From positions 47,740,001 through 47,804,000 of the forward strand of contig OZ024740.1 of assembly GCA_964016885.1 (NCBI GenBank): a stretch of 64,000 nucleotides of DNA, given 5' to 3'. Under the pieces are notes generated by a model. The model had not been told where the DNA came from, did no database searches, and worked only from the letters and a program-made list of their open reading frames with translations. This stretch comes from Eledone cirrhosa (lineage: Eukaryota). The position numbers and the translations under genes were made by a program. Shown piece after piece: positions 25,156 through 59,649 of this stretch (its first letter is position 1; every line of letters begins with the position of its first letter).

Positions 25156-25440
25156 GTACCAGAGCTTGCAGGATCTTGGCTTTTGACATTACTGATGCAG
25201 TTGCCTCTAATTATATTTTTGCTGTTCAATGAAGGCCAGATATTTCCTCTTGAAATAGCTGTTCATATTGTCATGTTTACATTTATTCTGACTGAAATGT
25301 TTTCAGGTTATTTTGCTATTCGTACAATGATCAACTATCAGATGACACAGTTTCACTTGCGTCAGCTTTCTGACCTAGAGTTTATTGCTCAAGACGAAAG
25401 TTTGGACAGAGAAAGACTTTCTATAACCAAATTTCAATAG
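25156..25440 (+). CDS. TMEM17: TMEM17 exon 4, terminal (VPELAGSWLLTLLMQLPLIIFLLFNEG..TKFQ*)
   Basis: Poly-T tract and cag acceptor; matches recalled human VPELAGFWLLSLLLQLPLILFLLFNEG; spliced CDS 618 nt, 205 aa. Confidence 0.97.
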   Translation, partial: VPELAGSWLLTLLMQLPLIIFLLFNEGQIFPLEIAVHIVMFTFILTEMFSGYFAIRTMINYQMTQFHLRQLSDLEFIAQDESLDRERLSITKFQ

Positions 25441-36279: not shown

Positions 36280-39200
36280 TTAAGATTCAGAAACAGAAGC
36301 ACTGTTAGATTGTTGCTCACTCTGAAAAGTGTTTTCTGAAAAGGCCACTGACTGATTAGCATCAATTTTAGGTCTGGGCTTGCCTGCTTGACCAGCAACA
36401 ATGGCATTACTACTAGTAGTACTAGTCAAAGGTTTTGAAGAACTAATTGCTTTGCCAGCAGTTGTTACAATAGAAGAATAATTAGAAGCAGAAGCCATGC
36501 CTAAACTTTGTCCAAAATTTGAAATACCCGTGGAACCATCTGCTGAAATACCTGCCAAAGATAGTTTCCTTAATTCGGCTTGCGTCCGCTGCCCTGAATC
36601 TATATTCAATAAAGCAGCAATAGTGTTTAAACGTGGACGAGTTGGTGTTGATGCTGTTGAAATGTGGCTAGCGGCAGTAGAACTATGGCTTGTTGGCTGA
36701 GTTAAGGCAGTACTGCTAGGTTGAGAAACACTACTCAAAGACAACTTGTGAAGATTAAGTTCTTGGGTGGGAACTGATGAGAGTATTGATGCAGATGTTG
36801 CAGCTTCTGATGCTGAAGACACCAGCATGTGCTGCAGTAAAGAGTTATTGCCTGTAGCAGTGCTGACAGCATCTGAATGTTGGGGTGTATTCATGGCACT
36901 ATTTGAATTCTTCACAGAAGAAAATCCTAATAGATTTTTATGTAGTAACTGGCCATCTTTGCTGGTAGACTGGGAGATGGCAGCTCTAACTGCAGACAAA
37001 GAGGTGTTAACTAAATCTAAAGTTTGTTTATCATCTTTCTCAGTGAGGTTTCTTTGTACATCAAATTGTTGGACAGCTTGCATTTGTGACTTTTGGAGGA
37101 GAAGTTGTGAAATTTGGTTGGTTGCCAGAGTGTTTACACCTGACTGTGGAGAAGTAATTGTATGTGAGTTAGATACAATATTAGCTCCTGAATCAGTTGA
37201 AACAGATTGTAAAGTATTCCAATTAACTCCAGAACTATAAGGAACAGATGTAGGCAATGACATTTCAGCCCCTTTAACAAATGCTACATTTGATTTATCA
37301 GTGACACCAGATGAAAGATGACTTATTGCATTGGCATCCTTTCGTCCAGCCATAGAAGTTAAAATCATTTGTGCTTTTTCGGCAATAGCAACTGAATAAG
37401 GTGGAGGAGGCTTTCCAATTATTGCTGACTTTGGCATCATATATGACTGTGTTACAGCAGGGTCTCCAACTGACCCTGCATGAGACTGGGAGAAACCCAC
37501 AGGGACAGATGATTGAACTTTAGGGACATTGGAATACTGCTGAGAAAGAGAAGCAATATCCCCTTCTGAATGGTGAGCAAAACGCTCTTGATTCTGAAGT
37601 GATATTTCTCTGGATTGTATTATAGATGACAATGTTTGTTTATCTTGCTGTGTGAGACTACTAAGGTCAAATGATCGCACCATAGATGACAATGTCAAAC
37701 GTTCCCGAGCAGATGAAGGAGAAGATTCATTTGCCTCTGATGCATTTTGTTGAGGCACTTGTTTAGAACTAGTTAAGTTGTTAGCACCTTGAACCATAGA
37801 ACTTAGCGTGAATCGTTCTTGTTGAGCAACAGAAGTTTCAACACCGGTTTGCAGTAAGTTTTGTGGTAAAGTTCTGCTTTGTGGCGCTAATAAGGTACCA
37901 CTTTGACTGAGTGAAGTTGCTGTGGCAGTGGAACCACCACAAGACTGAGCAGATACAGCAATATTTCTTAGCTGGTTTGCATTCAATTCCATAATTGTCT
38001 GTTGATTATCTGACGATCCTGTATGTGGAATGGCAGCCTGTGTAAAAATGGAAAGTTTGTAATCTGGTGAGGAAATCTTATTTTGAGAGATTCCAAGAGT
38101 TTGTGCAGTGAGTATATCATCCTTGCGCAGAAGTGAAGATTGCTGGGTGTCAGCTAGAGGAGACTGTGAGATTGAAGTGACAGGTGATTGAGCAATACTA
38201 GAAGGATTAGTTGAAGGAACATGGCTTCTTGAAGATAATTGGTTGTGAAGAGTAACAGGGTTAACCTGAGCAATGTTCTGAGTTGAGCTGATGGGGATCT
38301 GAGTGGTGTGAAACAGAGTGTGAGTGGTGGGAGGTTGGGTAGACTGTGATGGAGATGTAAGCAATTGGTTAGCTTGTGTGGTCAGAGAAAGGGATTTTAA
38401 TAGCTGGGGATGATTTGCTTGGTTTGCACGGGCCTTAGCTGCCTGAAAATACTGGCTAAGGCTGGCTCGGTTCATTTGTGACAAAGCTGCTTGTAAAGCT
38501 GGAGTAGTTCCTCTTGGCTTTGTTAACTGAGCTGAAGCGGTAGCACTCAGCTGCAAGTTACTAGTAGGCTCTTGAGATTGTGACTGACTAACAGCTTGCT
38601 GGGAGATTGTTTGACCCATTAGGGCCTGTGGAGATGATTGACTAATGACAGCCTGAGGTGATGCTTGGCTTGATGGAGTTTGTGGAGATGCTTGGCCTAC
38701 TGATGCTTGTGGGGAGGGTTGGCTAAGGACCGACTGTGGAGAGGCTTGGCTTACTTGTGACTGGGGTGAACTTTGTCCTATGGGAGTCTGGTTACCTATC
38801 TGGGCATGCTGCTGCTGCTGTTGAAGAACTAATTGTTGAACTTTAGCCTGAGCTTGTTGCTGTTGTATTTGCTGTTGCAATTGTTGTTGCAACTGCTGCT
38901 GCTGCTGCTGTTGTAACTGCTGCTGCTGTTGTAGCTGCTGCTGTTGCTGTAGCTGCTGCTGTTGTAGCTGCTGTTGCATTGCTATCTTCTGAGATGCTGC
39001 TTGATTTGCAAGCTGTTGAACAACACGTTGTTGGCGAGAAGCTAACTGATGTGTTCTCTGTTGCTTGATCAGTTGACTAAGTTGCTGAGTTATCTGCTGC
39101 TGCATTACACTTTGAGGCTGCTGCACACTGGACACTTGCTGACCTGCAACTTGAATGTTTTGTGATGGCTGTTGCTGCTGCTGCAGCTGTTGCAGTTGTT

Positions 39201-39589
39201 GTAACTGCTGTATCTGTTGTAGCTGCTGTAATTGCTGCTGCTGTTGCTGCTGTTGTTGTTGTTGTTGCTGTTGTTGTTGCTGTTGATGTTGTGGCTGCTG
39301 CTGCTGTTGTTGTTGGTGTTGCTGCTGTTGTGCTAAATTAAGTTTCAACTGTTGTTGATTGACAGTTTGTTGTTGACTTAAAGCTTGTATCAACTGTTGC
39401 TGCTGTTGTTGTTGTTGTTGCAATTGCTGTTGTTGCAACTGCTGCTGTTGTAATTGTTGTTGTAACTGTTGTTGCTGTAGTTGTTGTTCCAGTGAGGTTT
39501 GGGTCTGTAACTGAGAAACCTGTGTCTGTATTGTTTGAGGTCTTTGTTGTTGTTGTTGCTGTTGCTGTTGCTGCTGCTGCTGCTGCTGC

Positions 39590-39685
<96 letters not shown>

Positions 39686-41423
39686 TGTTGTTGAAGCAAC
39701 TGATGAAGCTGCTGCTGAGTAGCTTGACTTAGTTGCTGTGGAGCTGACTGAGCCTTCTGTTGTCTTAATCCCTGGCTAAGCTGGGCTTGCAGAGAAGTAA
39801 AATTTGGCTGATTGGCAGCAGGTGATGCAGCATATGGAGAAGTTGGAAGAGCTCTTGGCTTACCTGATGCTAAATGCTTAGATTTGTCTGCACTTAACTT
39901 TGGTTTGCCCGAAGCAGCTTGGCGAGGTTTAGTTACCAAACCAGTCTGGGACAGATTCTGTTGGACTGCTCTGTGTGCAGAAGCATTCTGAGCCATTGGA
40001 TTGGACTGGAGTGTAATTGGAGAAAGAGCACCAGTTTGTAGAGGTGACTGAGCTGTGGAAGATAAGGGAGACTGGGCAGCAGTAGGGGAGGGAACAGGCT
40101 GAGTCATAGGGGACAGAACAGGCTGTTGCAAAGGAGACATTGAAATTTGTGTCATAGGAGAATGTGTGTGCTGACTCATAGGAGACTGGGTATGTTGACT
40201 GATTGGGGAGTGAATAGTTTGACTGATGGGTGACTGGGCAATTGGGGACATAACTGGATGTGCTATGGGAGACTGGACAGGTTTTGCCATAGGTGAATGG
40301 ACAGACTGAGGCATGGGTGATTGAACAGGTTGTGCCATAGGGGACTGTACAGATTGGAGCATAGGTGATTGTGAAGGATGCACCATTGGTGAATGGGCAG
40401 ATTGGTTCAAAGGTGACTGAACAGGGGATTGAACAGGCTGAGCCAAAGGAGAGTTAGCAAGATAAGATTGAGATGCTCTGACCACAGAAGACTGTTGTGC
40501 AGTCTGAACAGACTGATGAGGGAAAAGAGAAATGCTAGATCGTGGAATACCTGTCACTGAGTGAGTTGGTTGAGTATTGCTGGCAAAGTGCAAAGCCTGA
40601 GTAGATACTGCAAGTGCAGTGGCAGAAAGAGGAGAGCTGGCAGGTGCACCAATAGGAGAAGTAGGAGCCAAAGTGGTGCTGGTGGTAGTAGTAATGGTAG
40701 TAGTAGTAGTAGTAGTAGTAGAAGAAGTAGTAGTAGTGCTGTTACAACTAGCATTAGCTGTAGTGGTACCAGGTAGTGATTGTGGCACATTTTGTGGAAG
40801 AGAAACCCTTGGTTTATTAAAAAGAGTTATATTAGAGGGGTAAGAGCTTACCATTGGTTCAGTCATGAGAGCTTGGGTTAGAGGTGTGTACTTCGAGGAG
40901 CTGACGGCAGCAGTGGAGGTCATGGCTAGAGACACACAAGTGGATGACCCACTTGTCTTCATGGGGTTTTCTACTGATTCTGCTTGAGTCACTTCGGTCA
41001 TATTTAACTCAGCATCGCTTGGAAGAAGTGTGTTTTGAGGAAATTTAGTAACACTGGATGCAGTCTGTGCAACATTTTTCTCTGCACTCTGACCAGTTTG
41101 AGATTTGGGACTTGATAATGTACGAGGAGACGTGGAAGTGGAACGCAAAGGTGGAGTGTATTTAGAAGTCAAAAGACGATTATGTGAGCCCTTTGCTCCA
41201 GCAGAACGAGGTGTACCTGGTGGCGTAATAGAAGGAGCATACTTTTCTACAGAAATCGGTGTTCTAGGTGATGAGAAGAAACGTCCACCTGCTGAACCTC
41301 GAGTAGATTTTGGAGTACCTTTCTTTCGCTGGTCCTTTGTGGCTTCTGTAGCTTTCCTTTGTCGATTAAGGTCATCAAGCACTTTATCCATCCTGGCAAC
41401 CCTCTTTTTTCCTTTTGATGAAC
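36280..41423 (-). CDS. PAGR1: PAGR1-like exon 4: end of conserved core (GSSKGKKRVARMDKVLDDLNRQRK) plus about 1,690-aa S/Q/P/T-rich extension
   Basis: Acceptor aatgtag|GT at 41424/41423, phase 1 fits exon 3; matches recalled human [25 protein letters not shown]; uninterrupted 5.1-kb frame to TAA. Confidence 0.9.
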
Positions 41424-41818
41424 CTACATTTTTAAACAATAATAAATAAACAAATGTAAGAAAATCATAAGAATAAGATTTTTAAGAATCGATTTTATTG
41501 TAAATACATATCAGAAATTAACACTTACCACTCTTTGATAAACCAAAATTGAGCGGAACCTTGTCCACATCTATCTTACTCCAGTTTGTAGGTGCCAATA
41601 CCAAATACCCCAACCCTAGAGACTGAACACCAAAGTGTACTCATAATCATAATATATCTTAAAACAACCATAACCTGCTTGAGTAGACAATGAGGTCACT
41701 GGGTGGTTAACACCATTTAATATACTCAGTGTATTCAGTTAATGGGCAACTCTCCAGACTAATATATTTCAATGAGACTGTGGACATATCGTATTGCCTT
41801 TATGCCTTCACGTTTTAA

Positions 41819-42035
41819 CTCTTTAGCATTTACATTACTCAATATTTACTATTGTATTTTCACGGTAAAGGCTTTACCTCAGATAATTATCTCACATAAT
41901 ATCGGATCTATGAGATTTTGATATTATTTTGAGAACAATACCTTAACATCAGTATGAGCAGCAGGTTACAGCCGGTTTGAACAGAAAGAGGTGAGAAAAT
42001 TCTGGCCGAATACAGCCGGTTTAAATGCTAAAGGG
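41819..42035. mobile_element. piggyBac-type MITE copy 1
   Basis: TTAA target duplications; TIR C(T)CTTTAGCATTTA / TAAATGCTAAAGGG. Confidence 0.85.
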
Positions 42036-43045
42036 TTAAAACATATTATTTCAATATTTTTATATCGAAGTTTCCATGCTAGCACAGTGAAATCGTTTTG
42101 ATTAATTTTCCTACCACTAACCACAACCATGAAGCAGTTCAACCAGGCAAAGTGAGAAGTTATGTGTGATATTCAAGAGCACAACAGAATGACAACAGTA
42201 AAATCTGAATCTGTGATCATATGTTCAGAAGTCTTAGCTTCTCAGCTAACATGCCACATTTTACCAGAAAAGAAAAACAAAATCTGATATAATTAATCAT
42301 AAGTTATTATAGTTACTTTGATTAGTCAGTTAAGACAAATAATATTTCTGACTTTCAATGTTTTCCACAGAAAGAATGTGTGTACGTATGGATCCATAAC
42401 TTCTAATGGGTTTGTTGGAGCGCCAAAGTGACATACATTGTTTCCTGGGCATTTTAAAGCTGGCAAAGCCCTACCCCTCTCCATGTCTGAACACAACTTA
42501 TTTCTTCCAGAGAAGGAAAGTGAGAAAGAAATATAGAAGAATAGACTCCAGTGCAGAACTGGTACTTTATTGACCTTGGCAAGATTTGAACTCAGAGCAC
42601 GGAGAGCCAGAACAAATACAGCAAAGCATTCTATCCAATGATTTAATGGTTCTGCCAGTCACATAAAGAATACTTCTCTATAAAATCTAACTAGTTAAAG
42701 GAGAACCTGGATGGTAAATTAACAGACAATATGGTCAAAAATGTTATCAAAGTGAACCAAAAGGTCCAAATTTTGTTGATGCAACAATGTTAGAAATAAA
42801 TAGTAGTTACTGTAAATTAATGTTATACTGATGTTGTTATTACTTATCATTTAGCTATTAAAGAATTAAAAAATAACCTACTATATACAGAAATTAATCT
42901 TAGGAAAAATATAATCTATGTCAACAAACATTGTGTATTAGAAGCCAATCTCTCAGACTTTTACGAAGCACTGAGGGATAGCTAATATAAAGTACATGTG
43001 TGGAGATGCTATAAAATAGCTTATAAAATAGGGTGAAGACCTTAA

Positions 43046-43230
43046 CCCTTTAGCATTTAAACTGACAGTATCCAGCCAGAATTCTCTCACCTCTTTCTGT
43101 TCAAACCAGCTGTAACTGGCCACTCATACTGATGTTAAGGTATTGTTCTCAAAATATTATGAGATAATTATGTGAGGTAAAGCCTTTACCATGAAGATAC
43201 AATAGTAAATATGGAGTAAATGCTAAAGGG
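43046..43230. mobile_element. piggyBac-type MITE copy 2 (inverted relative to copies 1 and 3)
   Basis: TTAA|CCCTTTAGCATTTA..TAAATGCTAAAGGG|TTAA; internal sequence is the reverse complement of copy 1. Confidence 0.9.
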
Positions 43231-43800
43231 TTAAAGATTGAAAAAGAAGCTGCCATCGACCGCTATTCCTATTTTATAGCATCTCCACACATGAGCACTA
43301 CATTCTGTATATTCACTATAATTCACTATATTCTCTGTGATGGCAAAGAACTTACTCTCAAATGAATGATAAAGAATTTAACTGCTAGCATCAACTAAGT
43401 TATATCTATTAATCCTTTTGTAACTATATTTCTAACAAAAGACTACTTATGAATTTTAAATAAGTTTGAAACTCATCAACAAAATGTATGTATTTATCTA
43501 GTAATATAATTACTTTCTTATAATTAAGTTGGTGTTTGGAGCATAATATAACAAAGGTTGATTCATAATATTATAAAGAAAGGTATTTAGAGAAATATAA
43601 ACACTTAAAAAAATAAACAGTTTCTATCATAGAACCAGGAGCAGTTTCAAAAGGATGAAATTCCTGCTACTTTTTCTTTCATCATAACAAATACACCTCA
43701 ACATATCTAATATATAGTCCTTAGTTAACTGAGCCATGGCATGTAAGCTACTCTGCCTTGGATCACAAATAAAAGCTCATAGTTGATAAGAATGTATTAA

Positions 43801-44010
43801 CCCTTTAGTGTTTACATAGCTTTATATTTACTATTGTATTTTCACAATAAACACTTTATCTCACATAATTATCCCACATAATATCAAATCTACAAGATTT
43901 TTATATTTATTTTGAGAACAATACCTTAACATCAGTATGAGCAGCTGGTTATGGCTGGTTTGAACAGAAAGAGGTGAGAGAATATATCAAATATATTAAA
44001 TGCTAAAGGG
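43801..44010. mobile_element. piggyBac-type MITE copy 3
   Basis: TTAA|CCCTTTAG..TAAATGCTAAAGGG|TTAT; collinear with copy 1. Confidence 0.85.
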
Positions 44011-44560
44011 TTATACATCATTTCATCCCAACATGTAACAGGCATCTATTATATTAAAGTTGGAGTATCAGTGACATAAAGAGTGCATGTGTGATGGTGA
44101 AAGAGAGTAGCAATGGTAGTGGCAGTAGCAACACCAACATTTTATATTTCTTAATCTCACATCTTTATGGAAAGGGGATGGTGTGCGTGAGAGAGGGGAG
44201 TAACACTGCTGACATTTCTTTTTAAAACCTATGCTATATGAAAAATACTGTTTATCCCTAAAATATAAGTAAAATATCCCATTTTGATGGTCATTTGTTC
44301 AATTTATTTGATTTATTTGTTGTGTTGTTAAAGAGTAATTAAGTACTTATATGTTGTTTGTGTGTATATATAACTTATAAATGAAACATTTAAAATGTGG
44401 AATTCCCATAGGGTCAGCTAGTTTTATTTTAATATCAAAGAAGATATTACCCCAGAATAGCAATGAACCTGACAATCAAGAAAACACAACAAATATTCAT
44501 CATTGTTTTAACAAAAATAGTGAGTAACTAAATAGTGTAGAAGGACATATATACACATAC

Positions 44561-44643
44561 CAGGCGTTTTTCTAGGAGTTAATTTAGTGGTAGATTGTTC
44601 TAGGCTGCAATCATCAAAGTCAAATTCTGTAGGCTGTGGTGCT
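44561..44643 (-). CDS. PAGR1: PAGR1-like exon 3 (APQPTEFDFDDCSLEQSTTKLTPRKTP/G)
   Basis: Poly-T ctag acceptor, G|gtatgt donor; PTEFDFDD and R.TPG match recalled human PAGR1; phases 2 and 1 fit neighbours. Not in the supplied ORF track. Confidence 0.95.
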
Positions 44644-44971
44644 CTAGAAAAAAAAAGAAGTAAGCAAACAAAACATTTATTAAGAAAAATATGCTTTACA
44701 TCTTCAGTAATGAACTTGAAGAATTTCTATTTTTATTTATATATTTTAGTTTTGACAATTCTACACGTTATCGAAGTTTAAATTTGGACATTATGAGAAA
44801 ATTGTTTTTTTTTTCCTTCCTAAGAAAGAGGAACAAAATGGTTGTGAGGTTAAGAAGATGCTGGACTGTTGACGACATAGTTAGGAGTTCAAAAATATTA
44901 CAAAAGCCATTGTACTGCATCCCTGGACAAGGCAGATAAATTTGTTTGCTCTAGATTATCTGACTTACTGT

Positions 44972-45310
44972 ATCATCATCATCATCATCATTTTACGTCC
45001 ACTTTTCCCTGCTTGCAAGGGTGGGACGGGAACTGATTCTGGCTTGATTTCTACAGCTGGATGCCCTTCCTAACACCAACCTCATTTACAGTGAGTGCTG
45101 GGTGCTTTTTTGCCGTGGCACCTCCACAACCACTTTGCAGTGGAATGATATGGACCTCAGTCCCTATCATCTCATTTCTACAGCTGAGTAAACTGGAGCA
45201 ATGTGAAATAAAGTGTCTTGCTCAAGGAAACAACACATCACCCGGTCTGAGAATTGAACTCACAACCTTTCGATTGCAAGGCCAATGCTCTAACCACTAA
45301 GCCATGTGCC
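44972..45310 (-). mobile_element. Young tRNA-derived SINE, copy B
   Basis: Near-identical to copy A. Confidence 0.9.
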
Positions 45311-45481
45311 TGTATATATTCGAATATAAGCCATGCCCCTATTTTATGTCTGGGCAAAAATCCAAACCCAAGGCAGCTAATCAACACATGTTTAGATGGT
45401 GAATATAAGCCAACACCTCATTTTACCATCGATTTTTTTTTGGTCACATATTCCTAGACTTATATTCGAGTGTATTTGGTA
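45311..45481. mobile_element. Tigger/pogo-like MITE
   Basis: Imperfect TIRs GTATATATTCGAATATAAG / CTTATATTCGAGTGTATTTGGTA. Confidence 0.55.
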
Positions 45482-45782
45482 ATATAAATCAGGTTCAACA
45501 GCCATTACAGCAATATTAGTTTCCTAGGAACAATGTTAATTTGTACAGAGATGCAAGGTATAGTCAACTAAATTAATCCTATTATCAACGTCATTTTTTC
45601 ATGCCAGCATGGGCTGGACACATCTTTTAACACAGTGCCTCTTCACTTATCGTTGTCCATCATCATCTTATTTATAAGACTCAGAATCCTGAAATAAGCT
45701 TTCATTGCTTTGTCTTCTTAAATCTTTCTCTTCTATAGGCTGTTTTCACTTACAGCGTTTGACACTTTTGCATTGCTTATTA

Positions 45783-46124
45783 TCATTCATCATCATTTCA
45801 TTTTACGTCCGCTTTTTCCCAGCTTGCAAAGGTGGGACGGGAAGTGATTCTGGCTTGATTTCTACAGTTGGATGCCCTTCCTAACACCAACCTCATTTAC
45901 AGTGAGTGCTGGGTGCTTTTTTGCCGTGGCACCTCCACAACCACTTTGCAGTGGAATGATATGGACCCCAGTCCCTATCATCTCATTTCTACAGGTGAGT
46001 AAACTGGAGCAATGTGAAATAAAGTGTCTTGCTCAAGGAAACAACACATCACCCGGTCTGAGAATTGAACTCACAACCTTTCGATTGCAAGCCCAATGCT
46101 CTAACCACTAAGCCATGTGCCTCC
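45783..46124 (-). mobile_element. Young tRNA-derived SINE, copy C
   Basis: Near-identical to copies A and B. Confidence 0.9.
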
Positions 46125-48492: not shown

Positions 48493-48879
48493 ATCATCAT
48501 CATCATCATTTTACGTCCGCTTTTCCCTGCTTACAAGGGTGGGACGGGAACTGATTCTGGCTTGATTTCTACAGCTGGATGCCCTTCCTAACACCAACCT
48601 CATTTACAGTGAGTGCTGGGTGCTTTTTTTCCGTGGCGCCTACACGTCCACTTTACAGTGTGGGCTGGGTGCTTTTTTGCCGTGGCACCTCCACAACCAC
48701 TTTGCAGTGGAATGATGGGGACCCCAGTCCTATCATCTCATTTCTACAGCTGAGTAAACTGGAGCAATGTGAAATAAAGTGTCTTGCTCAAGGAAACAAC
48801 ACATCACCCAGTCTGAGAATTGAACTCACAACCTTTCGATTGCAAGCCCAATGCTTTAACCACTAAGCCATGTGCCTCC
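48493..48879 (-). mobile_element. Young tRNA-derived SINE, copy D (extra internal repeat unit)
   Basis: As copies A-C but with two TTTACAGTG..GCTGGGTGCTTTTT..CCGTGGC units. Confidence 0.9.
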
Positions 48880-49311
48880 ATGCTTCCTGAAATTTGCCAA
48901 CACTACACCTGATATTCCCCTCCATACACATGCACACATGTATATTATGACTCATACACTATTCACTTACTTGACATTTGTATATTATTCTATGTACTAT
49001 AGACGCACTGTTGACGAGTTGTAGTGCACCTGAGCACTGTACACAATAATTTCATTATTATTATTATACATATATATATATATCATCATCATCATCATCA
49101 TTTTACGTCCGCTTTTTCCTGCTTGCAAGGGTGGGACGGGTCCTATTCAGCACAGCATCTCTCCACTTGTCACGGTCCTTCGTCATCTCCTCCGTGAGCT
49201 TCAGCAATCTGAGGTCTGCTATCACCACCTCTGCCTATGTTTTTTGTGGTCTTCCTCTACTGGCATTTCTTGGCACTTCTTTACCCAGCGGTCATCCTCC
49301 ATGCGCATCAT

Positions 49312-49360
<49 letters not shown>

Positions 49361-49439
49361 TATATATATACACACAAACACACACATATATACATACATA
49401 CATACATACTTGCACATGCAACAAATCTAATTTGCTTAC

Positions 49440-49752
49440 TTTTTTTCCTCTTTGTGTTCTTCTATTTTCTGTTCCACAACTAACTTCTGTTCTGTGTCCA
49501 TGTCTTCTTCATCTTTCTCCACCTCAGGTGGTCTGCGACCAGGACATTTCCATTTAAGAACTGGTAAGGCACCATTATCCAGTTTCTCAAACATTTCAGC
49601 CACTTGATCCGGATAAGGGATCCAGAGTCCCTGGAAGACATTAGTTGAGCTATACTTCTCATCATCACTCACATCAACATCAATAATGTCTTCTTCGTCC
49701 TCTACACGAGAACTCATTTTCCTCACCATCTGGGAAGATTTGGGGGAATTAG
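49440..49752 (-). CDS. PAGR1: PAGR1-like exon 2 (..DEEDIIDVDVSDDEKY..WIPYPDQVAEMFEKL..LKWKCPGRRPP..EEK)
   Basis: ctttttag acceptor, AA|gtaagc donor; SD(D/E)E, WxPxP, L..RRPP and acidic stretch are the PAXIP1-associated protein core. Confidence 0.93.
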
Positions 49753-52700
49753 CTAAAAAGAAAAAAAGAAAACCTTGAATTTAGATTTTCTCTGACAAAG
49801 AAAAGAGAAAATAAACAACATTTCTTGTATAACACATTTTTTTTTCTTTTTATAGATTGTTTACTGTTGAACTACTATCCACATGATCAGGATATTCAAA
49901 TTTCACAAGCATTGTCTATTACTTAGGCAAAGCACAGAATACCGCAATCTCTTACTCTTACTTCATGGGGCAATAAGTTAGTAGTGATAAAAGCATTGTT
50001 TCAATGTAAACAAAGGGTGGTGGATTGGCAGAATTTGTAGTGTCATATAAAATGCCACTGCAGTATTTGTTCTGGTTTTTAACATTCTGATCTGAAATCC
50101 TACCAAAGTAAATGTTGCCTTTCATCTTTCTGAGGTCAATAAAATAAAGTACTAGTCAAGTACTGTGGTTGATTTAATCAACTTTGCATTGCTTCCAAAT
50201 TTGATGGCCTTGTTAGAAATCAATACTGGCACAAACCATTATATCAAATGCCAGCATTCATAAATGGTGTAAATGTAGTAAAAATACAAACAACAGAAAA
50301 AAAACATTGAGTAATGCTACAAATTTAAATGTTTACATGCTTCAGGAAGTATTGTTTCATCACAGTTTAAAGTCCATTTTCACAAGCTAGCATGAGTTGT
50401 CCTATTGTGAGTCAAGTCAGGTGAGATGGTCATGTCTTGCTCATACAGAACTGTTTCTGGCTTAGTTTCTATGGCTGGATGTCCTTCCCAATGCCAACCA
50501 CATTTACAGTGTGAACTGGGTGCTTTTTGCTGTGGTACCAAAATAACCACTTTACAGTGTGGACTGGACACGTTGACATTGTGTCACCTAACAACCACTT
50601 TACGGTGGACTGGGTGACTTTTGTCATGATACCAGAACAACTACTTTATAGAATATCTGCGCTTTTATTGCAGCACCAAAACAGCCACTTTACCGTGTGG
50701 ATTGGGTGATTTTTGTCAGGACACCAACATAACCACTTTACAGTGTGGACTGAGTGCTTATAGGTGTAATATAGGAATGTTATTGTTAGTTAGACTAACT
50801 AAAGCAATGTAATACAAGATACTGTTCCTGCTTATGCAATATTTATCATATGCTTTGCCTCAAACTATACTCTCAATGCAAATAATTTAAATGCAAGCCA
50901 CACCGTTCTAGAGAAAGGGTGTTTAAATATAGACTAGTCTCAAGCATATCAAAAGTTATTACATAGTTTAACCTAGAGACTACAAAACTAAAAACCTTGA
51001 TACTAAAATGGACCAATCACATATTTCCAATGTCGAGAGTGACAAAGGAACGTAAGTAACTCAACGCAGAACAAATATCCAAAAGTACTTTGTTCATAAA
51101 GTACCAAATTTTACACATACTCCTCATAGTCAAGTTTATAACTGACAGCCACCTAAGTGCTGGTGCCCAGTATAGTCTAGAGCGGTTGGTGTTAGGAAAG
51201 GTATCAAGCTGTAGAAACCATGCCAAACAAAGGTTTGAGAAGACTCTTCAGTTGTGTCAAAGACAAGAAAACTTCTCCACTGCTGATGTCATGGTAAAAT
51301 GCACCCAGTATCCTTAGTGAAGTGCAGGAACTTAAGCAAGGTATGGACCCTGGCCCATCTAAGCGGTCAGCATGGAAAAGCAGGAATTGAATTATGACAA
51401 CGATGATGATATACATGGCACACACACACATTCCATTTACCAAATTCTACTCACAAAGTATTGAACCTGTGGCTATGGTAAAAGACTGTTGCCCAAGGAG
51501 CAGTATTGTGGAATCAAACCTGTGGCTCTGCAGCAATGGTCTATTACCATACTAGCTATGGCTGTGTAGTTAAGACATTTGCTTAGCAACCACAAACTTC
51601 TAGCTTTATCCCATTACACGTCACCTTGGGCAAATATCTCTTACCATAGCCTCGGGATGACTTATGCTTTGGGAGTGGAATGTGCTACAAAGAACTATTT
51701 AAAGCCTTTTCAGAAAACTAGATCTACTGGAAATATAATTCCCCATGTATGATACACAAATGGTCTCTAGTGTTAGAAGATCATAGTGAAAATACAAATG
51801 TTTTTGTTGTTTAGTTCCATGTCAGCCCCATATAATCTAAAGTGTTCCAGCCATGACCATCGATTCTTTTATACAAGGTTGGTTTTCTCATAGAAAATAA
51901 TTGTTTCTACTTTTGGCACAAGGCCAGCAATTACCCAGTGCATTACTGGTACTTTATTTTATCGACCCCGTAATAATGATGTTAGGAAGACAAAAATATG
52001 AAGAGTGGAGTTGCATATTTTTTATCAAGAAAATTTAAGTTTTCTGAATTTTCAATTAAACACTAGTAATATACTGGAGGGGATGACCAAGTTTCAATTG
52101 TTGATTAAGACCATTTAATTTCACCTGCATTGCTAAACATTTCTTATAAATAATACAAAGCAATAAATAAACTGGAAGCAGTGGTAAAAAAACTAGGTAT
52201 ATCTGGTTTGTTTGTGTTACAACCAAGAACTCATCCCATTTTGTGTTGCAATCCTCCTATGCCAAAACTGACCAGAGGTACTCAACAACCTGTACAATGT
52301 ATGCCAGTTCATAGTGTATATATAACATACAAGACCGACTGTTGATTATGCTCAATGGTTACAGTTGTCAAATAAAACTAATCACAGAAAAAATTTAACA
52401 CAAAAGAATGATGTCACTTAAACCATTAGGTCATTTAAACATCATTGGTGACCCTATCATCAAAATTATATATAAAATCCTAAGTCAGTTTTGTGGAGCC
52501 AATCACACTCCAAACTCCACATAATGGAGCTTTTGAGCTCTGAATTACAAACTAATGTTATGGAGGTGGCATATTTGTTCCGTCTCACTGTGCACTGAGT
52601 TCAAATTCCACCAAGATCATCTTTGTCTTTCAGGCTTTCTAGGTCGATAAAAAGGTACCAGTCCAATACTGGAGTTGATTCTTCATCTATATCTCTGGAA

Positions 52701-55469
52701 TAAATTGGCTGTGTTCAGACCTGGAGTTACGGGTCCATACATTGTAGAACCATTGTGAATTATACAATGTTAAACTGAATAGGTTAACATGATAGCCATG
52801 TAATCATCATTTTTATGTTGACTTTTCCATGCTGGCAGTGATTGTATGGGACTTTATGAGGCAATTGAATAAAATTCCTAATATATAATTTATGTTGAGA
52901 TAACAATTCTATGTATTCTTTACTATTTTTTAATATCTTAGTGAAATTTATTTAATTAGTGCTAATTGTTAGTCTATTAAATTAACTGATTATAATGAGT
53001 CCACACTGTAAAGTGGTCATGTAGAAGACACGGTAAAAAGGCTCCCAGTCCACACTGTAAATGTGGTTGGTGTTAGGAAGGGCATCCAGCCATAGAAAAC
53101 CTGCCAGATAGTCCTATACGAGCGAGACACGGTCACCTGATCAATCTTGCCTCAAGTGGGAGAATTCCCGTCTAACCCATGCTAGTGTGGAAGATAGACG
53201 TTAAATGGTGATGATGATGTAGGGTAATTTTGAAAACTTAGACATTTCCATGAGTTTTTTTAGCAAATGTTTTTTATGCTGTTTCTTATGCAAAATTTTA
53301 TTTAAAAACAAGAAAGATCACTGAAGATGGTCAGTTCCAGCATTTTACTATGATAGAGTAGAAAAATGGTTTAGTTAAGAATTAAGTAGGACCTTATAGA
53401 CAAGATATTACAAAAATAAAAAGGTAATACATTATTATCGCCATTTAACATCCATGGGTTAGACGAGTTATCCTGTTGTGAGACAAGTCAGATCAGGTGA
53501 TCATTTCTTGCTCATACAGAACTGTTTCTGGCTTGGTTTCTATGGCTGGAAGCCCTTCCTAACACCAACCACAGGTTGTTGTGTCACCAGTATGACCACT
53601 TTACAGTGTAGACTGGGTGAATTTTGTCATGTCACCAACACAACCACTGTACAAGGTGGACTGAGTACTTATTTGTCTAGTCACCAGCACGACAGTAAAT
53701 GTTAATAAGTAATGTTCTATATCAACAACCAAGCTTCTTGATACCAACCCACTTAAAAAACTGTTCCTTTTAAATTAGAATATTCAAACAATTTTATAAA
53801 AGAACCTTTCATTAAGTTATCTTACAAAAACCATCCTATCATCTTCATTTAACATGCTTTCCCTGTTAGCTAGGGCTGGACTTAATGAAATAATTTTAGT
53901 AAATCTCTCCAAATCATTCAATAATTTATTCAAACATAATGTATTTCATTAGAAATACAGTATCGAAAGGATTAATCAATTAGATTTTTATGTAGGTCAT
54001 TTTCTCTTATCTCTCACTCTCCTAAGAGTTGTATTATTTGGATGCACTAATCTGTCTTCTGTGATGAGTTCCTGGAAGGAAATTGAAGAAACACTAACAT
54101 TACCATGTTAATCAATATACTACCAGAATCAACAGATATACAGAAATAGGCAAATCACTGCGTGTCATTGTGATACTCAGCTAGGTAGCAGAGGCATGGA
54201 ATATCACTGACCAGCACTTACATGCTATAAGTCTGTTTGGTTGAAGTTTATCTGGGACTTGAGAACAATCTGAAGAATGCGCTAAACAGATTGTGCTATC
54301 TGCTTGAAAATGAATCTGAGAAATAGATTTGTTCTCAGCAGAGCTTTTCTACTAGAAAACGGGTCACAGGTGGTGGATAGCAATAGTCATCAGATATGAT
54401 GTTAGCTGCATTATAAACAGGCTTGTGCTGGATGAATAGGCAACTCCAGACTACTAGAGGTGATGGAGTAATGGGTAACACTTTTAGCTCCCAAGAAAAC
54501 TCTCACAACCTGGTGATGTAGCTACTTGGTGAGTAAAGACCTGCTAAAAAAAAGCCTAATCTTTGCGGGTCTGAGAAAAAGTACCAAATTGGTGACAGGC
54601 ACAAGTAAAACAACCAAAACACTGCAGTATGGTAAGAATAAAAGCATTCATAGCACATCGTCCTTCATGTGGGATAACAAATTAAGCGTTCAGGCCTTAA
54701 GTTAGTATTCATGCCAACCCTTACCTATGGTCATGACTGAAAGAATACAATCGTGAATATAAGTGACTCAAATGGGGTTCCTCTGAAGAGTCTTTGGAGT
54801 AATGTTACTAGATAAAGTGCGTAGCTCAGACATCAGAGAGTCGTCCAGGTAGAGTTGCTACTTCTGCAAATTGAGAGATCACAGCTCTGATACAATGGAC
54901 ATGTGGCTAGAATGTCTAAGGAAAGAATTGCTGGACAGATTTTACAGGCAGGAGATCCAAGTATAGACCCTGACATTAAAAACAAACAATTAAGAGTCAA
55001 TAATTTAGTTCCTATGTGGTTTCTCAACCAGCAGGAAACTAACTAAATCTTCAAACTGCATCCTACTGTCCTGAAGAGGGAGGACTACATTAGATAATGT
55101 AGTCTTAGATACACAATGCTAGAAAGAAGGATGGGATAATCATGGCTGCAACACTGTTGATCATGAATCTGCCAAAGTAGTGTTGATCTGGAGTTAAGCA
55201 ACAGCAAACATCTAATTTACAGATGGCATAAATGAAATCATGTGTTGTTTTTGTCTTTAAACTTCCTACTTTTACTTCAGGTAAAAATAATTTATAGTAC
55301 TTAATATTCAGTAGGATCAACCAGCTTTAACAATTTTAGGGTTTTGTAATTTTACAAAATCGGAATCATTTTCAGACATCTAGAAATCAATGGCTTGCTG
55401 TAATAAAAACAAAGAGTAGCATGTAGCATGTGCTCACAGGAAACAAGTTGTATCAAATGCTCAGAGGTT

Positions 55470-56563
55470 TCCATACAAGTAGTTGACAGCTTGTTATCTG
55501 ATTGACCAAATTAGTAGTGGAGGTGGGTGTTCCAAAAGTACAGTAGCCAGAAGGAGAATGGGATAGAAAAAATTCAGGAAACTACTACTTCTGCAAGCTA
55601 CAAAAGGTTTTTCCCTCAAAATGTAGGGCAGATTGTATGATGAATGTGTACAAACTGAAGTGAGACCTGGGCGCTGTGGGCAGAGGACATACTAAAGAAA
55701 TGAAGCTTGCATGATCCGATGGATCTGTAATAGTAATATACAAGAACAGCAAAGTGTCAATGAACTGAGAGAGAAAATGGGCATATGAGAGCTCAGATGG
55801 AGTGTGCAGGAGAGGAGATTGCGGTGAAATGGACATGTGATATATATGGAGGCTGACAGCTGTATAAAAAGGTGCAGAGTGCTAAAAATTGAAGGAAACT
55901 ATGGAAGAAGACCTAGGAAGGCTTTGGATGAAGTGATAAAAGCTGACCTTTCACAATTAAACCTGTCAAAGGCAACCAAGATCTCTAGCAATATGCAGAA
56001 CTGCAAAAGACCTGCTTCCTATGTGCACAGGATGAAGCAAATATCTAGAAGACATTAGTATGCACCAAATCTCCTCTACCCTGTCCATAAACCTCTCATG
56101 TAACACTCTCTTGTTTCCCAGCTAAGTACCCCACCTTAGACCTACTGCTCCAATCCCCATGCTGCATACACACCACAGGCCCCCAAAAGAGCATCCAGTC
56201 AACCCTGTAAACTGGTCAAGCTGGTGACACAACAAAAAGCACCCAGCCCACCCTATAAAGTGGTTGTGTTCGTGAGATATTAAAAAACATCAGATCCACC
56301 TTGTAAGCTGGCCTTGCTGGTGACATGATGAAAAAGTGCCCAGTTCAACCTGTCAGTTGGTCATTTTGGTGCCACAATAAAAATCACCCAGTCCACACTG
56401 TAAATGCGGTTGGCTTTAGGAAAGGCATCCAGCCATAGAAACCAAGCCAGAAACAGTTCTGTATGAGCAAGACATGGTCATCTAATCTCACTTGTTTCAC
56501 AATGGGACAATTCGTCTAACCTATGCTAGCATGGAAAATAGACATAAAATGGTGATTATGATG
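55470..56563 (+). mobile_element. Degenerate RTE LINE 3' portion with repeat-containing UTR; tail-only relatives near 47700-47870, 50365-50760(-), 52998-53219, 53435-53680(-)
   Basis: Decayed DSL..DQISSGGGCS, GHVIYMEADSCIKRC..RPRK, and shared GGAAGGGCATCCAGC / CCATGCTAGCATGGAAAA tail. Confidence 0.8.
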
Positions 56564-57039
56564 ATTATTAATATTAGACAATTCAATTGTTTTTTTCTTT
56601 GTAATCAAAAAGGTTTTTAAGTTAAGTTGGAGGAATTAAGGATTACACTTCAAGAAGATTATTTAATAAATTCATAGATCTTAATTAGACAGGGAAATTT
56701 AGAAATATATTTAACATTCAATTATTATTCATGAATAGTAGCAACCTAAGTGGAGCAATTCTAAAAAGGACCATATTTACTGAGTGAATAAAATATCCAT
56801 TCTCCATTCATTAAAATTAATCAAGTATAGATTTTTTGCCAACACTGTATGTACCGATGTAAATACCTTGTCTTTGTATGCTATATTTTTACAATTAGAA
56901 AAATCCTGTGTTGGGATTTCATTAGTGATTTCTAAAGTGTTTATATCTGTCTTTACATAGTGTAGATACAAATCAATAAGATATTGAAACAAAATACTAT
57001 TAGCACACCAGTAATTCATTAATTTTACTAACTACCAAG

Positions 57040-57442
57040 AACTCATCTGATGGTGCATTCTGAAACCTTAAGATCCTTGCAATGGATCTGATTGACTTTC
57101 ATGGGGTTTTATCGATTAATCTTTGAATGGTTTTACAAACTTAAGCGTTGTGATTGTATTAGGACCTTTTGCATGAGTTTTACACTTGGCTGCGGATGTT
57201 GGATCCCCATCAGCAGCTTCTGGATTCTTTTTAACTTTGACAATGAAGGATTGGGCAACTTTCAAGCAGGAAGCTATCACTGTATCACTATGCTGTGCTT
57301 TTCAGGCAACGATTACAGCATACCTTTTCATTTGCTGAGTTAATTTAATGTCTGGCATTATTTATCTAAAAAAAATTTTTTAATTAGTAATAAGAAAGTT
57401 AAAGCTCAAGAGGTATCCTAAAAAAAACTGATGCACCCTGTA
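57040..57442 (-). mobile_element. Tc1/mariner transposon 5' remnant
   Basis: TA|CAGGGTGCATC terminus at 57442; decayed HTH region MKRYAVIVA*KAQHSDTVIASCLKVAQSFIVKVKK..KSIRSIAR..VSECTIR. Confidence 0.7.
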
Positions 57443-57506
57443 TATGCAAATTGGTCAACCTAATTTACCTAGCCTTTATGTCCGTAGACAATTAAAGAGG
57501 CAATTC

Positions 57507-57564
57507 AGTCACTGATGAAATTCCAACACAGGGATGAAACAAAGAAACAAGTTTTTTTCTGACT
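57507..57564 (+). ncRNA. Type I hammerhead ribozyme-like motif
   Basis: Stem I AGTCA/TGACT, core CTGATGA(A), stem II ATTCC/GGGAT, GAAA, stem III with one C-U mismatch, UC cleavage site at 57558-57559. Confidence 0.55.
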
Positions 57565-58847
57565 ATAGAGATATATTGTGAGTAAAGGCGTCCATACATA
57601 CAACATTGGCTATAAATATCTATAGATATATTCTGCACTACAATATAATATTTAATTCACGAACCAGTAATTAAATATAAGTCTAGTCTATATGTAAGAC
57701 TAGATTTTCAAATAACTAATCTATTCGAAATAATATTTCCTTTAGTTGAACTTGACTAAAAATATAATAAAATATGCAGTATTTCTTATGAAACCTACAG
57801 ATTTAGGTTCTCAACTTAAACTGCTACATTACAATACTTTCTAAAGCACAACTTCATAGCCATATATTATACATGCCAGTAATCATCATTACAATCTTAG
57901 TCGTCACAAGTTACGTATTTGTAGATATGTTCTTAGAGAACAAAATACGCATTAGAGTTGTGTTTACTGATCAGAACTATTATATATTGCTACCGTTGCT
58001 TAATACCCTCAGTAAATAGGTGTATATCACAATTTGACAATTCAGATTCATTAAAAGATATATGGCTCTTATATTTGTAAAAAAAAATCGAGTTAAAGGG
58101 CCTCAACGTGTCGTGCGACCTGCTAGAAGTAGTAGCAAAATCCGTTCAAATGACACTACCGTCTTAATAAAGGATACGTTGAACAATATAGTCCCTAATA
58201 TACACAGACGAGAATATCATGGCTGGATAGCCTTCGATCATAGATCTGCTTGATCAGAGCTGACCGGATCTAAATAATCATTAGTCATTTTCGCTTTCCT
58301 TTGTGTAGTCGTATATTAGATAGAGTTTTCTGTTAATAAACTGACAACACAGAAAAACAACCTAAATTTGCCAAGGGGCGAAATAAGTTAGTTAATAATG
58401 TTTTCTTAGATGTGATGCCTGTGAGTTTTTATTAGTGGGAAAGTTGAAAGGATTTGTGACATCCATGCTTTTTAAAAGGGCATTAATGATCTTTATACGA
58501 AGCGAAGCGAAATTAAAGGATAATAATAGTACTGACTAAATATAATATAAATACACACACGCACAGTCTACACGGGAATTTAGAATAGTATTGTCTGAGC
58601 AAGTGACTGCTAGACAGAGTGTAACTCCAGCCAAGCTGCATTCTAATGTCAATATTTGGTTGCGGGAAGGTATTGATAAAGGGTATTTTACTGAGTGCAG
58701 CACTACTTCGATCGCTATAATAGTAGACGGTTTTCACTGGTTCTTCGATATTATAGCTTGAAGAGCATCGATTCGTTCATGGGAATCAGTAATAGCAAAT
58801 AAAATCTTAAGAGAAACGAGCAGAAATTGTGTTTAAATACACCCACC

Positions 58848-58928
<81 letters not shown>

Positions 58929-59003
58929 GTACGTACACACCCAGACACATCTACATTTCTTTCTGTACACACACAATCTACTTTTCTTTCTGTACACACT
59001 CAC

Positions 59004-59051
<48 letters not shown>

Positions 59052-59481
59052 TCTACTTTTCTTTCAGTACACATACATGTCTGCTTTTTTTCATTGTGGG
59101 TTCATTGGGAGTTGCTGATAGTGTAATAGATTTTCAGAGCAGTATATATTCAAAAGCAGCATTACAAAATATTTGTTGAAATTAGTGATCTTAAATCGAG
59201 GTTAAAATATCGATAACTAAATAAATATGAGCATTTTATAAAAAGTTTCTAGACGGAAATGCGACAGGGTTGTAAAATGTCAACAAAAATAAAACAACAA
59301 AGCATAATCTAAAATAAGCTAAACTATAAATATAGTTCTCCGAGAAGTAAAACACATAAAAACCATTAATAAACAAATAGCTTTGGTGCTAGGTTGATAA
59401 TGTTAAACAGAATATCTAATCGGTTTCGGAGTTACTTCTGAAATAAAGGAGAAGCCATCGTGAGCAGGAGACAAGACTCAC

Positions 59482-59551
59482 CTATGGCATCTGTCAATGA
59501 ATATGAGAAATACTTCTTCACTTTACATGAAAACATGCTACTTCCCGCCAT
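59482..59551 (-). CDS. PAGR1: PAGR1-like exon 1, predicted (MAGSSMFSCKVKKYFSYSLTDAI/A)
   Basis: ATGGCG start next to a promoter motif cluster, 23 open codons plus 1 nt, consensus donor AG|gtgagt, phase 1 splices in frame to exon 2. No homology support for this peptide. Confidence 0.65.
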
Positions 59552-59649
59552 TACAAGGCACGTCGCTGTCTATAATAGTGCGCGTGCGTACTATCAGTAC
59601 TCCTGACGTCACTTCCTATTAGTGACTTAACTTCATTTTCCATGGCAAC
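59545..59649 (-). promoter_or_regulatory. PAGR1 promoter motif cluster (YY1-like, NRF1-like, ETS-CRE composite, RFX X-box)
   Basis: CCGCCATT over the ATG, TGCGCGTGCGTA 59579-59590, TGACGTCACTTCCT 59604-59617, TTTTCCATGGCAAC 59636-59649; locally CpG-rich. Confidence 0.65.

What the first reader, a model, noticed from the sequence alone, without database searches (positions are those of the whole stretch)
36280..59551. Giant PAGR1/PA1: small MLL3/4-complex subunit fused to a roughly 1,690-aa condensate-like tail in one 5.1-kb exon
Seen: four exons splice in frame (70+313+83+5144 nt, about 1869 aa). The PAGR1 motifs (SDDE, WxPxP, RRPP, PTEFDFDD, ARMDKVL) all fall in the first 180 aa or so, and the same exon continues without a stop through S/T/P-rich, SP-repeat, polyQ and Q/L-rich blocks. 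Known: human PAGR1 is about 254 aa and partners PTIP/PAXIP1 in the KMT2C/D H3K4 methyltransferase complex, where Q-rich disordered regions are carried by other subunits (KMT2D, NCOA6, PTIP). Inference: in this lineage PA1 has become a large disordered scaffold or coactivator, implying a rewired COMPASS-like complex. A 5-kb open frame in AT-rich, TE-riddled DNA indicates selection.
Basis: partly seen in the sequence, partly recalled or inferred. Interest (0 to 1): 0.8.

Follow-up and report, generated by a model that had tools for sequence, protein, structure and literature searches.

The report
Cephalopod PAGR1 with splice-out polyQ tail
In octopus and cuttlefish the normally small chromatin adaptor PAGR1 carries a conserved tail of about 1,500-1,700 residues that is predicted to be mostly unstructured, and octopuses likely splice out its 938-residue glutamine-rich middle to make a half-length second form, which would let cells switch a predicted self-clustering domain on and off.

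Summary
Four GT-AG exons give a 1,869-aa PAGR1, single-copy in this 3.0-Gb octopod genome. Cuttlefish (1,673 aa) and an unnamed cuttlefish-like relative carry the same tail, about 50% identical, with conserved motif islands. Other molluscs have 245-639-aa proteins with Q-poor tails.

RNA-like contigs break at its donor and acceptor in 2 of 4 runs. O. vulgaris and O. bimaculoides gene models use this junction. Splicing it out removes 294 of 361 Gln and 34 of 40 SP sites, giving 931 aa.

The core keeps the cohesin-binding FDF motif, and the genome's STAG keeps the matching pocket. Best reading: a PTIP-cohesin adaptor whose coleoid-specific, motif-bearing disordered tail includes a splice-switchable polyQ module. 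No source gene for a fusion was found, a 'rewired COMPASS' is not shown (PTIP keeps a Q-bearing linker), and condensation is untested. New variant of a known kind; no paper found.

The parts
59482..59551 (-). Exon 1 coding part (Met1-Ile23); may be 5' UTR if Met32 is the start
   Evidence: GT donor; the first 31 aa are identical in O. vulgaris and O. bimaculoides models
49440..49752 (-). Exon 2: PAGR1 core (SDDE, WIPYP, W-C-P-G-RRPP), acidic stretch
   Evidence: Pfam PF15364 E 3.1e-7; spliced contigs
44561..44643 (-). Exon 3, with the PTEFDFDD motif at 44633-44610 (aa 132-139), the F/YxF cohesin-binding motif
   Evidence: matches human P165-D172 as listed in bioRxiv 2026.09.14.751543
36280..41423 (-). 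Exon 4 coding part, 5,144 nt, one open frame to TAA
41377..41397 (-). ARMDKVL motif, start of the predicted C-terminal core helix
   Evidence: helix 136-156 in the O. vulgaris model
38038..40851 (-). In-frame exitron, 2,814 nt = 938 codons (aa 347-1284); donor ATG|GTAAGC, acceptor ...CTTTCCATTTTTACACAG|G; removal gives 931 aa
   Evidence: contig breaks at 40851 and 38038/38009; same junction in CAI9715147 and A0A0L8FPE3
40675..40767 (-). Thr-rich run (aa 375-405), inside the exitron
40000..40452 (-). SP-octamer repeats (aa 480-630), Ser-Pro mostly every 8 residues; same repeat in cuttlefish; inside the exitron
38800..39729 (-). Q and Q/L-rich block (aa 721-1030, 66% Q) with Q50 of mixed CAA/CAG; predicted long helices; inside the exitron
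38608..38796 (-). SPQ nonamer repeats (aa 1032-1094), inside the exitron
37582..37671 (-). Conserved predicted helix (aa 1407-1436), in both isoforms
   Evidence: pLDDT 78-87 in the O. vulgaris model; conserved in cuttlefish
37381..37413 (-). KPPPPYSVAIA island with a PPxY motif, in both isoforms
   Evidence: invariant in 4 of 4 sequences aligned; PPxY in 0.85% of 2,000 shuffles
36973..37035 (-). Conserved island DDKQTLDLVNTSLSAVRAAIS
36823..36849 (-). Conserved island NNSLLQHML (LxxML, resembles a nuclear-receptor box; label recalled)
36592..36639 (-). Conserved island RPRLNTIAALLNIDSG (IxxLL)
35963..36279 (-). 3' UTR as far as an RNA-like contig reaches; AATAAA at 36157 and 36051
59604..59616 (-). 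GGAAGTGACGTCA, 53 nt before the ATG; looks like an ETS-CRE promoter element (label recalled)
   Evidence: 1 match, 0.01 expected

Best explanation
This is the single PAGR1 gene of an octopod, with a long last exon that likely makes two proteins: a 1,869-aa form and, by splicing out an in-frame exitron, a 931-aa form; both are predicted to dock on PTIP and cohesin through the conserved core, and the long form would add a phosphorylatable SP-repeat and polyQ module that likely promotes clustering on chromatin. Shown: gene structure, open frame, conserved core and FDF motif, tail conserved between octopods and cuttlefish, both isoforms in public protein records, an intact STAG pocket. Strongly inferred: exitron splicing in this species (contig branch points; the junction contig itself was not listed). 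Inferred from human work: binding to PTIP BRCT2 and to STAG-RAD21. Inferred only: the constant C-terminal part recruits partners through short motifs (PPxY to WW-domain proteins such as YAP/Yorkie; LxxML and IxxLL helices), while exitron inclusion tunes self-association through Q/L helices under control of proline-directed kinases. The tail likely arose by stepwise lengthening of the last exon, from the S/T/P tail that molluscs already have, before octopods and cuttlefish split.
For: Gene model and open frame. Single copy. Cuttlefish 1,673 aa and P0022 1,535 aa keep the tail: exitron region 50.6-51.4% and C-terminal part 47-48% identical over aligned columns, 11 conserved islands. Gap totals in 8 of 8 long coding-only contig pieces from three other octopods are multiples of 3 (1.5e-4 by chance). 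X24 contigs break at 40851 and at 38038/38009 with depth 13.2, then 4.8/6.4/11 inside, then 19.1; X1 breaks at 40851 and 38010; the DNA run X21 reads through 40851. O. vulgaris and O. bimaculoides proteins jump from EPM straight to the post-acceptor sequence. FDF motif binds STAG2-RAD21 in human; 7 of 7 pocket residues checked are present at the same spacing in this genome's STAG. Disorder and polyQ helices predicted. PolyQ is needed for MLL4 prion-like-domain clustering; PPxY links Ncoa6 to Yorkie.
Against: No junction-spanning contig was listed (joint tables were cut to 15 rows dominated by repeats). X5 and X12 read through the donor without a break, and X5 through the acceptor, so splicing was seen in 2 of 4 runs. 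No short isoform was found for cuttlefish (0 of 9 cluster members; none). Synonymous codon choice favours the donor only weakly (p 0.045) and the acceptor not at all (0.15). The exitron has 1.2% aromatic and 4.5% charged residues, unlike Tyr/Arg-driven condensate formers (recalled). No run is on record as RNA; contig depth does not measure expression. No protein-level, binding or condensate data.
Confidence: 0.55

Rival explanations
1. The tail is a tolerated, largely neutral low-complexity expansion: only the core works, the tail is kept in frame because stops or frameshifts would be harmful, and the exitron is leaky splicing of a huge exon.
For: Other molluscs carry unrelated, variable S/T/P tails of up to 495 aa. 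Coding nucleotide divergence in the tail (7-11%) is not far above exon 2 (6%) in X1. Third-position bias is modest, 27 of 55 listed changes, p 0.011. Acceptor codon choice is unremarkable.
Against: Near-invariant islands of 12-24 aa between octopods and cuttlefish, among them PPxY. A stop right after the core would give the normal short protein, yet none of the coleoid full-length records has it. The same junction appears in three or four octopod species.
Confidence: 0.2
2. One reading: PA1 became the main Q-rich scaffold of a rewired KMT2C/D complex, taking over from PTIP, NCOA6 or KMT2D.
For: The tail combines Q-rich blocks, PPxY and LxxLL-like motifs, as NCOA6 does (PPxY, the rest recalled). 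The NCOA6 N-terminal family was not found in the genome. The PTIP linker frame is only 11% Q.
Against: The NCOA6 search rang in no control genome and works exon by exon, so it shows no absence. PTIP keeps a Q-bearing linker. In human cells PTIP-PAGR1 acts on cohesin and class switching apart from KMT2C/D. The Q-rich part of KMT2C/D was not located, so no compensation was tested.
Confidence: 0.15
3. The 2.8-kb segment is mainly an ordinary intron that is sometimes retained, and the 931-aa form is the only real protein; or, the reverse, the short models are annotation artefacts that skip repeat-masked polyQ.
For: All octopus protein records found are the short form; all cuttlefish records are the long form.
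Against: 938 codons without a stop, 50% identical to cuttlefish, frame-keeping gaps inside the segment, and retention in already spliced transcripts (X5) argue against an intron. Contig branches at the exact GT and AG in two species' runs, absent from the DNA run at the donor, argue against an artefact.
Confidence: 0.07
4. The tail came from fusion of PAGR1 with another gene.
For: Its size and motif content resemble a separate coactivator; a donor gene could have been lost after fusing.
Against: No second match for aa 1407-1766 in the genome; no Pfam family in the tail; no usable Atlas hit (best 0.80, chance level); the tail continues the same exon as the core motif.
Confidence: 0.03

Closest known systems
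Human PAGR1/PA1 (254 aa; Pfam PF15364), partner of PTIP/PAXIP1 and of STAG-RAD21
   Same: Pfam core; PTEFDFDD identical to human P165-D172; acidic region; predicted disorder; single copy.
   Different: 7.4 times longer (3.7 times for the short isoform); polyQ, SP repeats, PPxY and other islands; alternative internal splicing. The human core LxxLL at 115-119 has no LxxLL counterpart in the core here.
PAGR1 of other molluscs (scallops 320-342 aa, pearl oyster 245, limpet 248, abalone 249, Littorina 290, Biomphalaria 406, Aplysia 576, Elysia 578, Potamilus 635, Plakobranchus 639)
   Same: About 37-47% identical core, followed by a basic SP/TP-rich stretch and an S/T/P-rich tail.
   Different: Their tails are at most 495 aa, 2-4% Q in the named ones, and do not match a profile of the coleoid tail (best E 0.051); coleoid tails are 783-1,698 aa, 15-21% Q in long forms.
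IDR-removing exitrons (Marquez 2015, PMC4484396; Yamagishi 2026, 10.64898/2026.10.06.756961: 820 events in 448 human genes, TARDBP as model)
   Same: Inside a long coding exon, no stops, multiple of 3, canonical sites, removes disordered sequence and spares the core, recurs across species.
   Different: An invertebrate case; 2.8 kb; removes the polyQ/SP block but leaves a 585-aa motif-bearing tail. Regulation unknown.
MLL4/KMT2D prion-like polyQ domain and NCOA6 (PPxY to Yorkie/YAP)
   Same: Helix-prone polyQ in a disordered region of a KMT2C/D-linked subunit; PPxY motif.
   Different: No sequence homology shown; one PPxY against two or three in NCOA6; sits on PAGR1 and can be spliced out.

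Membership tests
PAGR1/PA1 (PF15364) | PAXIP1_C profile above cut-off | tested here: met
   Exon 2 alone 31 bits against cut-off 27; O. vulgaris and cuttlefish orthologues 85-88 bits
PAGR1/PA1 (PF15364) | FDF (F/YxF) cohesin-binding motif | tested here: met
   PTEFDFDD at aa 132-139 equals human P165-D172
PAGR1/PA1 (PF15364) | Single orthologue, with partners PTIP and STAG present | tested here: met
   One locus; PTIP-like BRCT gene on C12 (identity as PTIP from recalled layout); STAG with 7 of 7 pocket residues checked
PAGR1/PA1 (PF15364) | Physical binding to PTIP BRCT2 and to STAG-RAD21 | not tested
   No complex prediction run: a textbook pair would pass by likeness; needs experiment
PAGR1/PA1 (PF15364) | Small size, about 250 aa (typical, not defining) | tested here: not met
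   1,869 or 931 aa
Exitron (Marquez 2015) | Internal part of a coding exon, no stop codons, coding flanks | tested here: met
   938 codons open, flanked by coding sequence
Exitron (Marquez 2015) | Canonical splice sites | tested here: met
   GTAAGC donor; pyrimidine tract and CAG acceptor
Exitron (Marquez 2015) | Both spliced and retained transcripts exist | tested here: met
   Retained: X5, X12, X24, X1 contigs and cuttlefish proteins. Spliced: branch points in X24 and X1 and two Octopus gene models; the junction contig itself was not displayed
Exitron (Marquez 2015) | Regulated use across tissues or conditions | tested here: inconclusive
   Branch in 2 of 4 runs; species, tissue and depth are confounded
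Condensate-forming prion-like/polyQ coactivator domain | Long disordered, Q-rich, low-charge region | tested here: met
   31% Q, 4.5% charged; 647 of 938 residues pLDDT under 50, Q blocks helical, pTM 0.23
Condensate-forming prion-like/polyQ coactivator domain | Forms condensates in vitro or in cells | not testable with these tools
   Needs experiment
Rewired KMT2C/D complex | Loss of Q-rich regions or subunits elsewhere (PTIP, NCOA6, KMT2C/D) | tested here: inconclusive
   PTIP keeps a 351-aa, 11% Q frame; NCOA6 not detected by an insensitive search; only the 3' end of KMT2C/D found
Gene fusion | Tail homologous to another gene or domain | tested here: not met

The most novel reading that the evidence does not exclude
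Coleoid cephalopods turned the cohesin-binding adaptor PAGR1 into a splice-switchable condensate scaffold: a tissue- or stage-regulated exitron decides whether PTIP-PAGR1 brings a 300-residue polyQ helix block and SP phospho-array to cohesin-bound enhancers and promoters, while the constant tail recruits YAP and receptors in place of NCOA6, giving a protein-level mechanism for the distinctive 3D gene regulation of coleoid genomes.
Probability: 0.15. Interest if true: 0.88.

Novelty: new variant of a known kind. Interest (0 to 1): 0.6.

Why it matters
PAGR1 is a small adaptor in every other animal identified here, and its FDF motif sets cohesin occupancy on chromatin in human cells. Coleoid genomes are reported to have a reorganised 3D regulatory landscape (PMC13652810, PMC9023564; listings and abstract starts only), but the proteins behind it are not named there as far as I saw. 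A sevenfold, conserved extension of a cohesin adaptor, with a natural plus/minus polyQ isoform pair, is a ready-made test of whether a Q-rich region changes cohesin or COMPASS behaviour. It is also an invertebrate example of an IDR-removing exitron with the same junction in several species. In practice, current Octopus protein records hold only the short form and cuttlefish records only the long one.

Tried and rejected
Run search listed no holder on record as RNA; X24, X1, X5 and X12 are treated as RNA-like because they join exons or lack the intron. X12 had no cover at 36719-38671; a filter can drop records, so this was not used. Joints and loose ends were dominated by repeats and gave no direct view of the exitron junction. 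One 57-nt polyQ piece with 4 gap letters (X12 record 10, another gene's repeat) and two pieces that include the 3' UTR (gap totals 48 and 32) were left out of the 8-of-8 frame count. NCOA6 family search: no real match, insensitive. KMT2C/D: only the 3' end on contig C1325; a motif search for the upstream part found nothing. ESM Atlas: no usable hit for the short-isoform tail, and only chance-level hits (0.80, 0.77) for the cuttlefish tail. No fold search was run, as both models were low in confidence. No complex prediction was run. Synonymous-choice test at the splice sites was weak. No Nautilus orthologue was among the 20 representatives looked up by name, so the extension is dated only to between other molluscs and the octopod-cuttlefish split. 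Earlier-findings look-ups returned nothing. Literature: 'PAGR1'+'octopus' gave 0 papers; searches listed none on cephalopod PAGR1 or cephalopod exitrons; the library lacks most subscription journals, and no supplements were read.


Full report
Observation. The window lies on contig C1 of a 3.0-Gb genome; its exon-2 peptide is 92% identical to Octopus vulgaris, so the animal is an octopod. Four minus-strand exons (59551-59482, 49752-49440, 44643-44561, 41423-36280) with GT-AG sites splice to 1,869 aa. All named motifs fall in aa 52-171. Exon 4 has one stop in frame against 74 and 86 in the other frames, and the longest ORF in 200 shuffles was 210 aa. Pfam PAXIP1_C matches the core and the gene is single-copy. 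The start may be Met32.

Transcription. No run was on record as RNA. X24 (identical sequence, same study as the best DNA holders, so not independent as to species) has depth 0.34 in the intron bin beside exon 4 against 13 in the exon, and one contig joins exon 2 to exon 4 with an 85-nt gap for exon 3; X1 shows all three pieces. X5 carries 1,717 nt of exon 4 in a contig with 397 further letters upstream, the size of exons 2 and 3. X24, X1 and X5 contigs tile exon 4 to the stop except at skipped repeats; X12 covers only its 5' part.

The exitron. X24 and X1 contigs both stop at 40851, the G of an ATG|GTAAGC donor, while the DNA run X21 reads through. X24 contigs meet again at 38038/38009, and X1 at 38010, on a pyrimidine tract plus CAG. 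X24 depth is 13.2 before the donor, 4.8, 6.4 and 11 inside, and 19.1 after the acceptor; X1 31.2, 14.9, 20.9, 25.5 (depth is a poor measure of level). The segment is 2,814 nt = 938 codons; removal gives 931 aa without a stop. The O. vulgaris (CAI9715147, 954 aa) and O. bimaculoides (A0A0L8FPE3, 956 aa) proteins have this junction. It removes the Thr run, SP octamers, Q blocks and SPQ nonamers: 294 of 361 Gln and 34 of 40 SP. Against: the junction contig was not among the rows shown; X5 and X12 show no branch at the donor; codon choice favours the donor weakly (0.045) and the acceptor not (0.15).

Conservation and dating. Cuttlefish (Acanthosepion pharaonis CAE1269110, and Logan records of 1,569-1,673 aa; 9 of 9 cluster members long) and unnamed P0022 (1,535 aa, 80% to cuttlefish) have the long form. 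Identity to the window is 50.6-51.4% in the exitron and 47-48% in the last 585 aa, with 11 islands, among them both splice-site peptides' surroundings (EPM|V, DYKLSIFTQ|A), KPPPPYSVAIAEKA, KDDKQT-DLVNTSLSAVR, NNSLLQHML and RPRL--IAALLNIDS. Gap totals in 8 of 8 long coding-only contig pieces from other octopods are multiples of 3, five of them within or reaching into the exitron, whereas the 3' UTR has single-base insertions. Of 55 listed substitutions 27 are at third positions (p 0.011). Splicing of the equivalent 742-aa segment in cuttlefish is possible (Met-Val guarantees the GT) but not shown. The octopod-cuttlefish split is about 270 million years old (recalled).

Other animals. A profile search of 1.84 billion representatives gave 286 hits; among the best 150 only O. 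vulgaris exceeds 654 aa. Named ones: scallops 320-342, pearl oyster 245; Potamilus 635, Aplysia 576, Plakobranchus 639, Elysia 578, Bradybaena 443, Bulinus 428, Biomphalaria 406, Physella 481; limpet 248, abalone 249, Littorina 290, a nemertean 255, Priapulus 262, a millipede 167, Echinococcus 395. In the 44 of 150 with a recognisable ARxDxVL-type motif the tail median is 109 aa and the longest non-octopus tail 495 aa; mollusc tails are Q-poor and a profile of the coleoid tail matches none (best E 0.051). Limits: many hits are fragments (median 176 aa), clustering at 50% hides long members (the cuttlefish protein is not listed), the profile is mollusc-biased, and Nautilus was not identified.

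Origin. The C-terminal tail has no second match in the genome, no Pfam family and no usable Atlas hit. With the mollusc trend this favours lengthening of the last exon over fusion (inference).

Structure. AlphaFold2 of the 923-aa O. vulgaris form: 787 residues under pLDDT 50, helices at 40-51, 136-156 and 459-478. The exitron peptide: 647 of 938 under 50, long helices over the Q and Q/L blocks, pTM 0.23. It is 31% Q, 4.5% charged, 1.2% aromatic.

Partners. Human PAGR1 is 254 aa (PMC9219552, first of four parts read), binds PTIP BRCT2 and can act apart from MLL3/4 (PMC4719306, passages). Its FDF motif is needed for cohesin occupancy, independent of KMT2C/D (PMC10570055, passages), and residues 164-172 sit in the STAG2-RAD21 pocket by cryo-EM (10.64898/2026.09.14.751543, passages). 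The octopod motif equals P165-D172, and this genome's STAG has R298, D326, S327, W334, L366, F367 and F371 equivalents at the same spacing (7 of 7 checked, counted by hand; Y297 lies on another exon). A PTIP-like gene on C12 keeps a 351-aa frame with a short Q patch after the second BRCT. NCOA6 and the Q-rich part of KMT2C/D were not located, so rewiring is untested. PPxY motifs link Ncoa6 to Yorkie (PMC4118621, passages), and polyQ is needed for MLL4 clustering (10.1101/2024.05.06.592652, passages); these are analogies only.

Mechanism. Most likely a PTIP-cohesin adaptor with a constant motif-bearing tail and an optional SP/polyQ module set by exitron splicing (confidence 0.55 overall; about 0.9 for the two-isoform anatomy, about 0.5 for a clustering role). 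Rivals: tolerated expansion 0.2, rewired COMPASS scaffold 0.15, intron or annotation artefact 0.07, fusion 0.03.

Novelty. PAGR1, polyQ coactivator domains and IDR-removing exitrons are each known (PMC4484396, passages; 10.64898/2026.10.06.756961, abstract and one results section). I found no paper on cephalopod PAGR1; the library is incomplete and supplements were not read. The short form is in public protein records for Octopus and the long one for cuttlefish, both unnamed. Verdict: new variant of a known kind, interest 0.6.

Noticed in passing
L029 (G000 C9:52,710,054-52,710,380, minus strand): The STAG/SA cohesin gene has two tandem, near-identical exons covering the pocket that binds F/YxF motifs, separated by only 38 nt (GT..AG); likely mutually exclusive exons that differ at a few residues next to the R298 equivalent.
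   Followed up: partly
window 25111-25440 (+): Last exon of a TMEM17/TMEM216-type gene (Pfam Transmemb_17, E 1.3e-6), convergent with PAGR1.
   Followed up: partly
window 14124-15323 (+): Fragment of a non-LTR retroelement with RT and an inserted PHD-like finger; similar copies at 11519-12359 and in fetched loci.
   Followed up: partly
window 59604-59616 (-): GGAAGTGACGTCA just upstream of the ATG, resembling an ETS-CRE element (1 match, 0.01 expected); implies a very short 5' UTR if Met1 is used.
   Followed up: partly
window 38002-38010: Just behind the exitron acceptor other octopods have in-frame insertions (16 aa in O. vulgaris; net 78 nt in X5) containing RKSSL, which cuttlefish also has nearby; the window's species seems to have lost it.
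   Followed up: no
window 21986-22901: Tandem array with a long unit, open in all three plus-strand frames, strong C skew; probably a non-coding minisatellite.
   Followed up: no
G000 C1325:1-18,200 (L026-L027): The 3' end of the KMT2C/D gene (ePHD, FYRN, SET exons) lies on a 93-kb unplaced contig; the rest of the gene is elsewhere.
   Followed up: partly
P0016-P0019: Scallop PAGR1 tails end in a poly-proline stretch without the Tyr of the coleoid PPPPY island.
   Followed up: no
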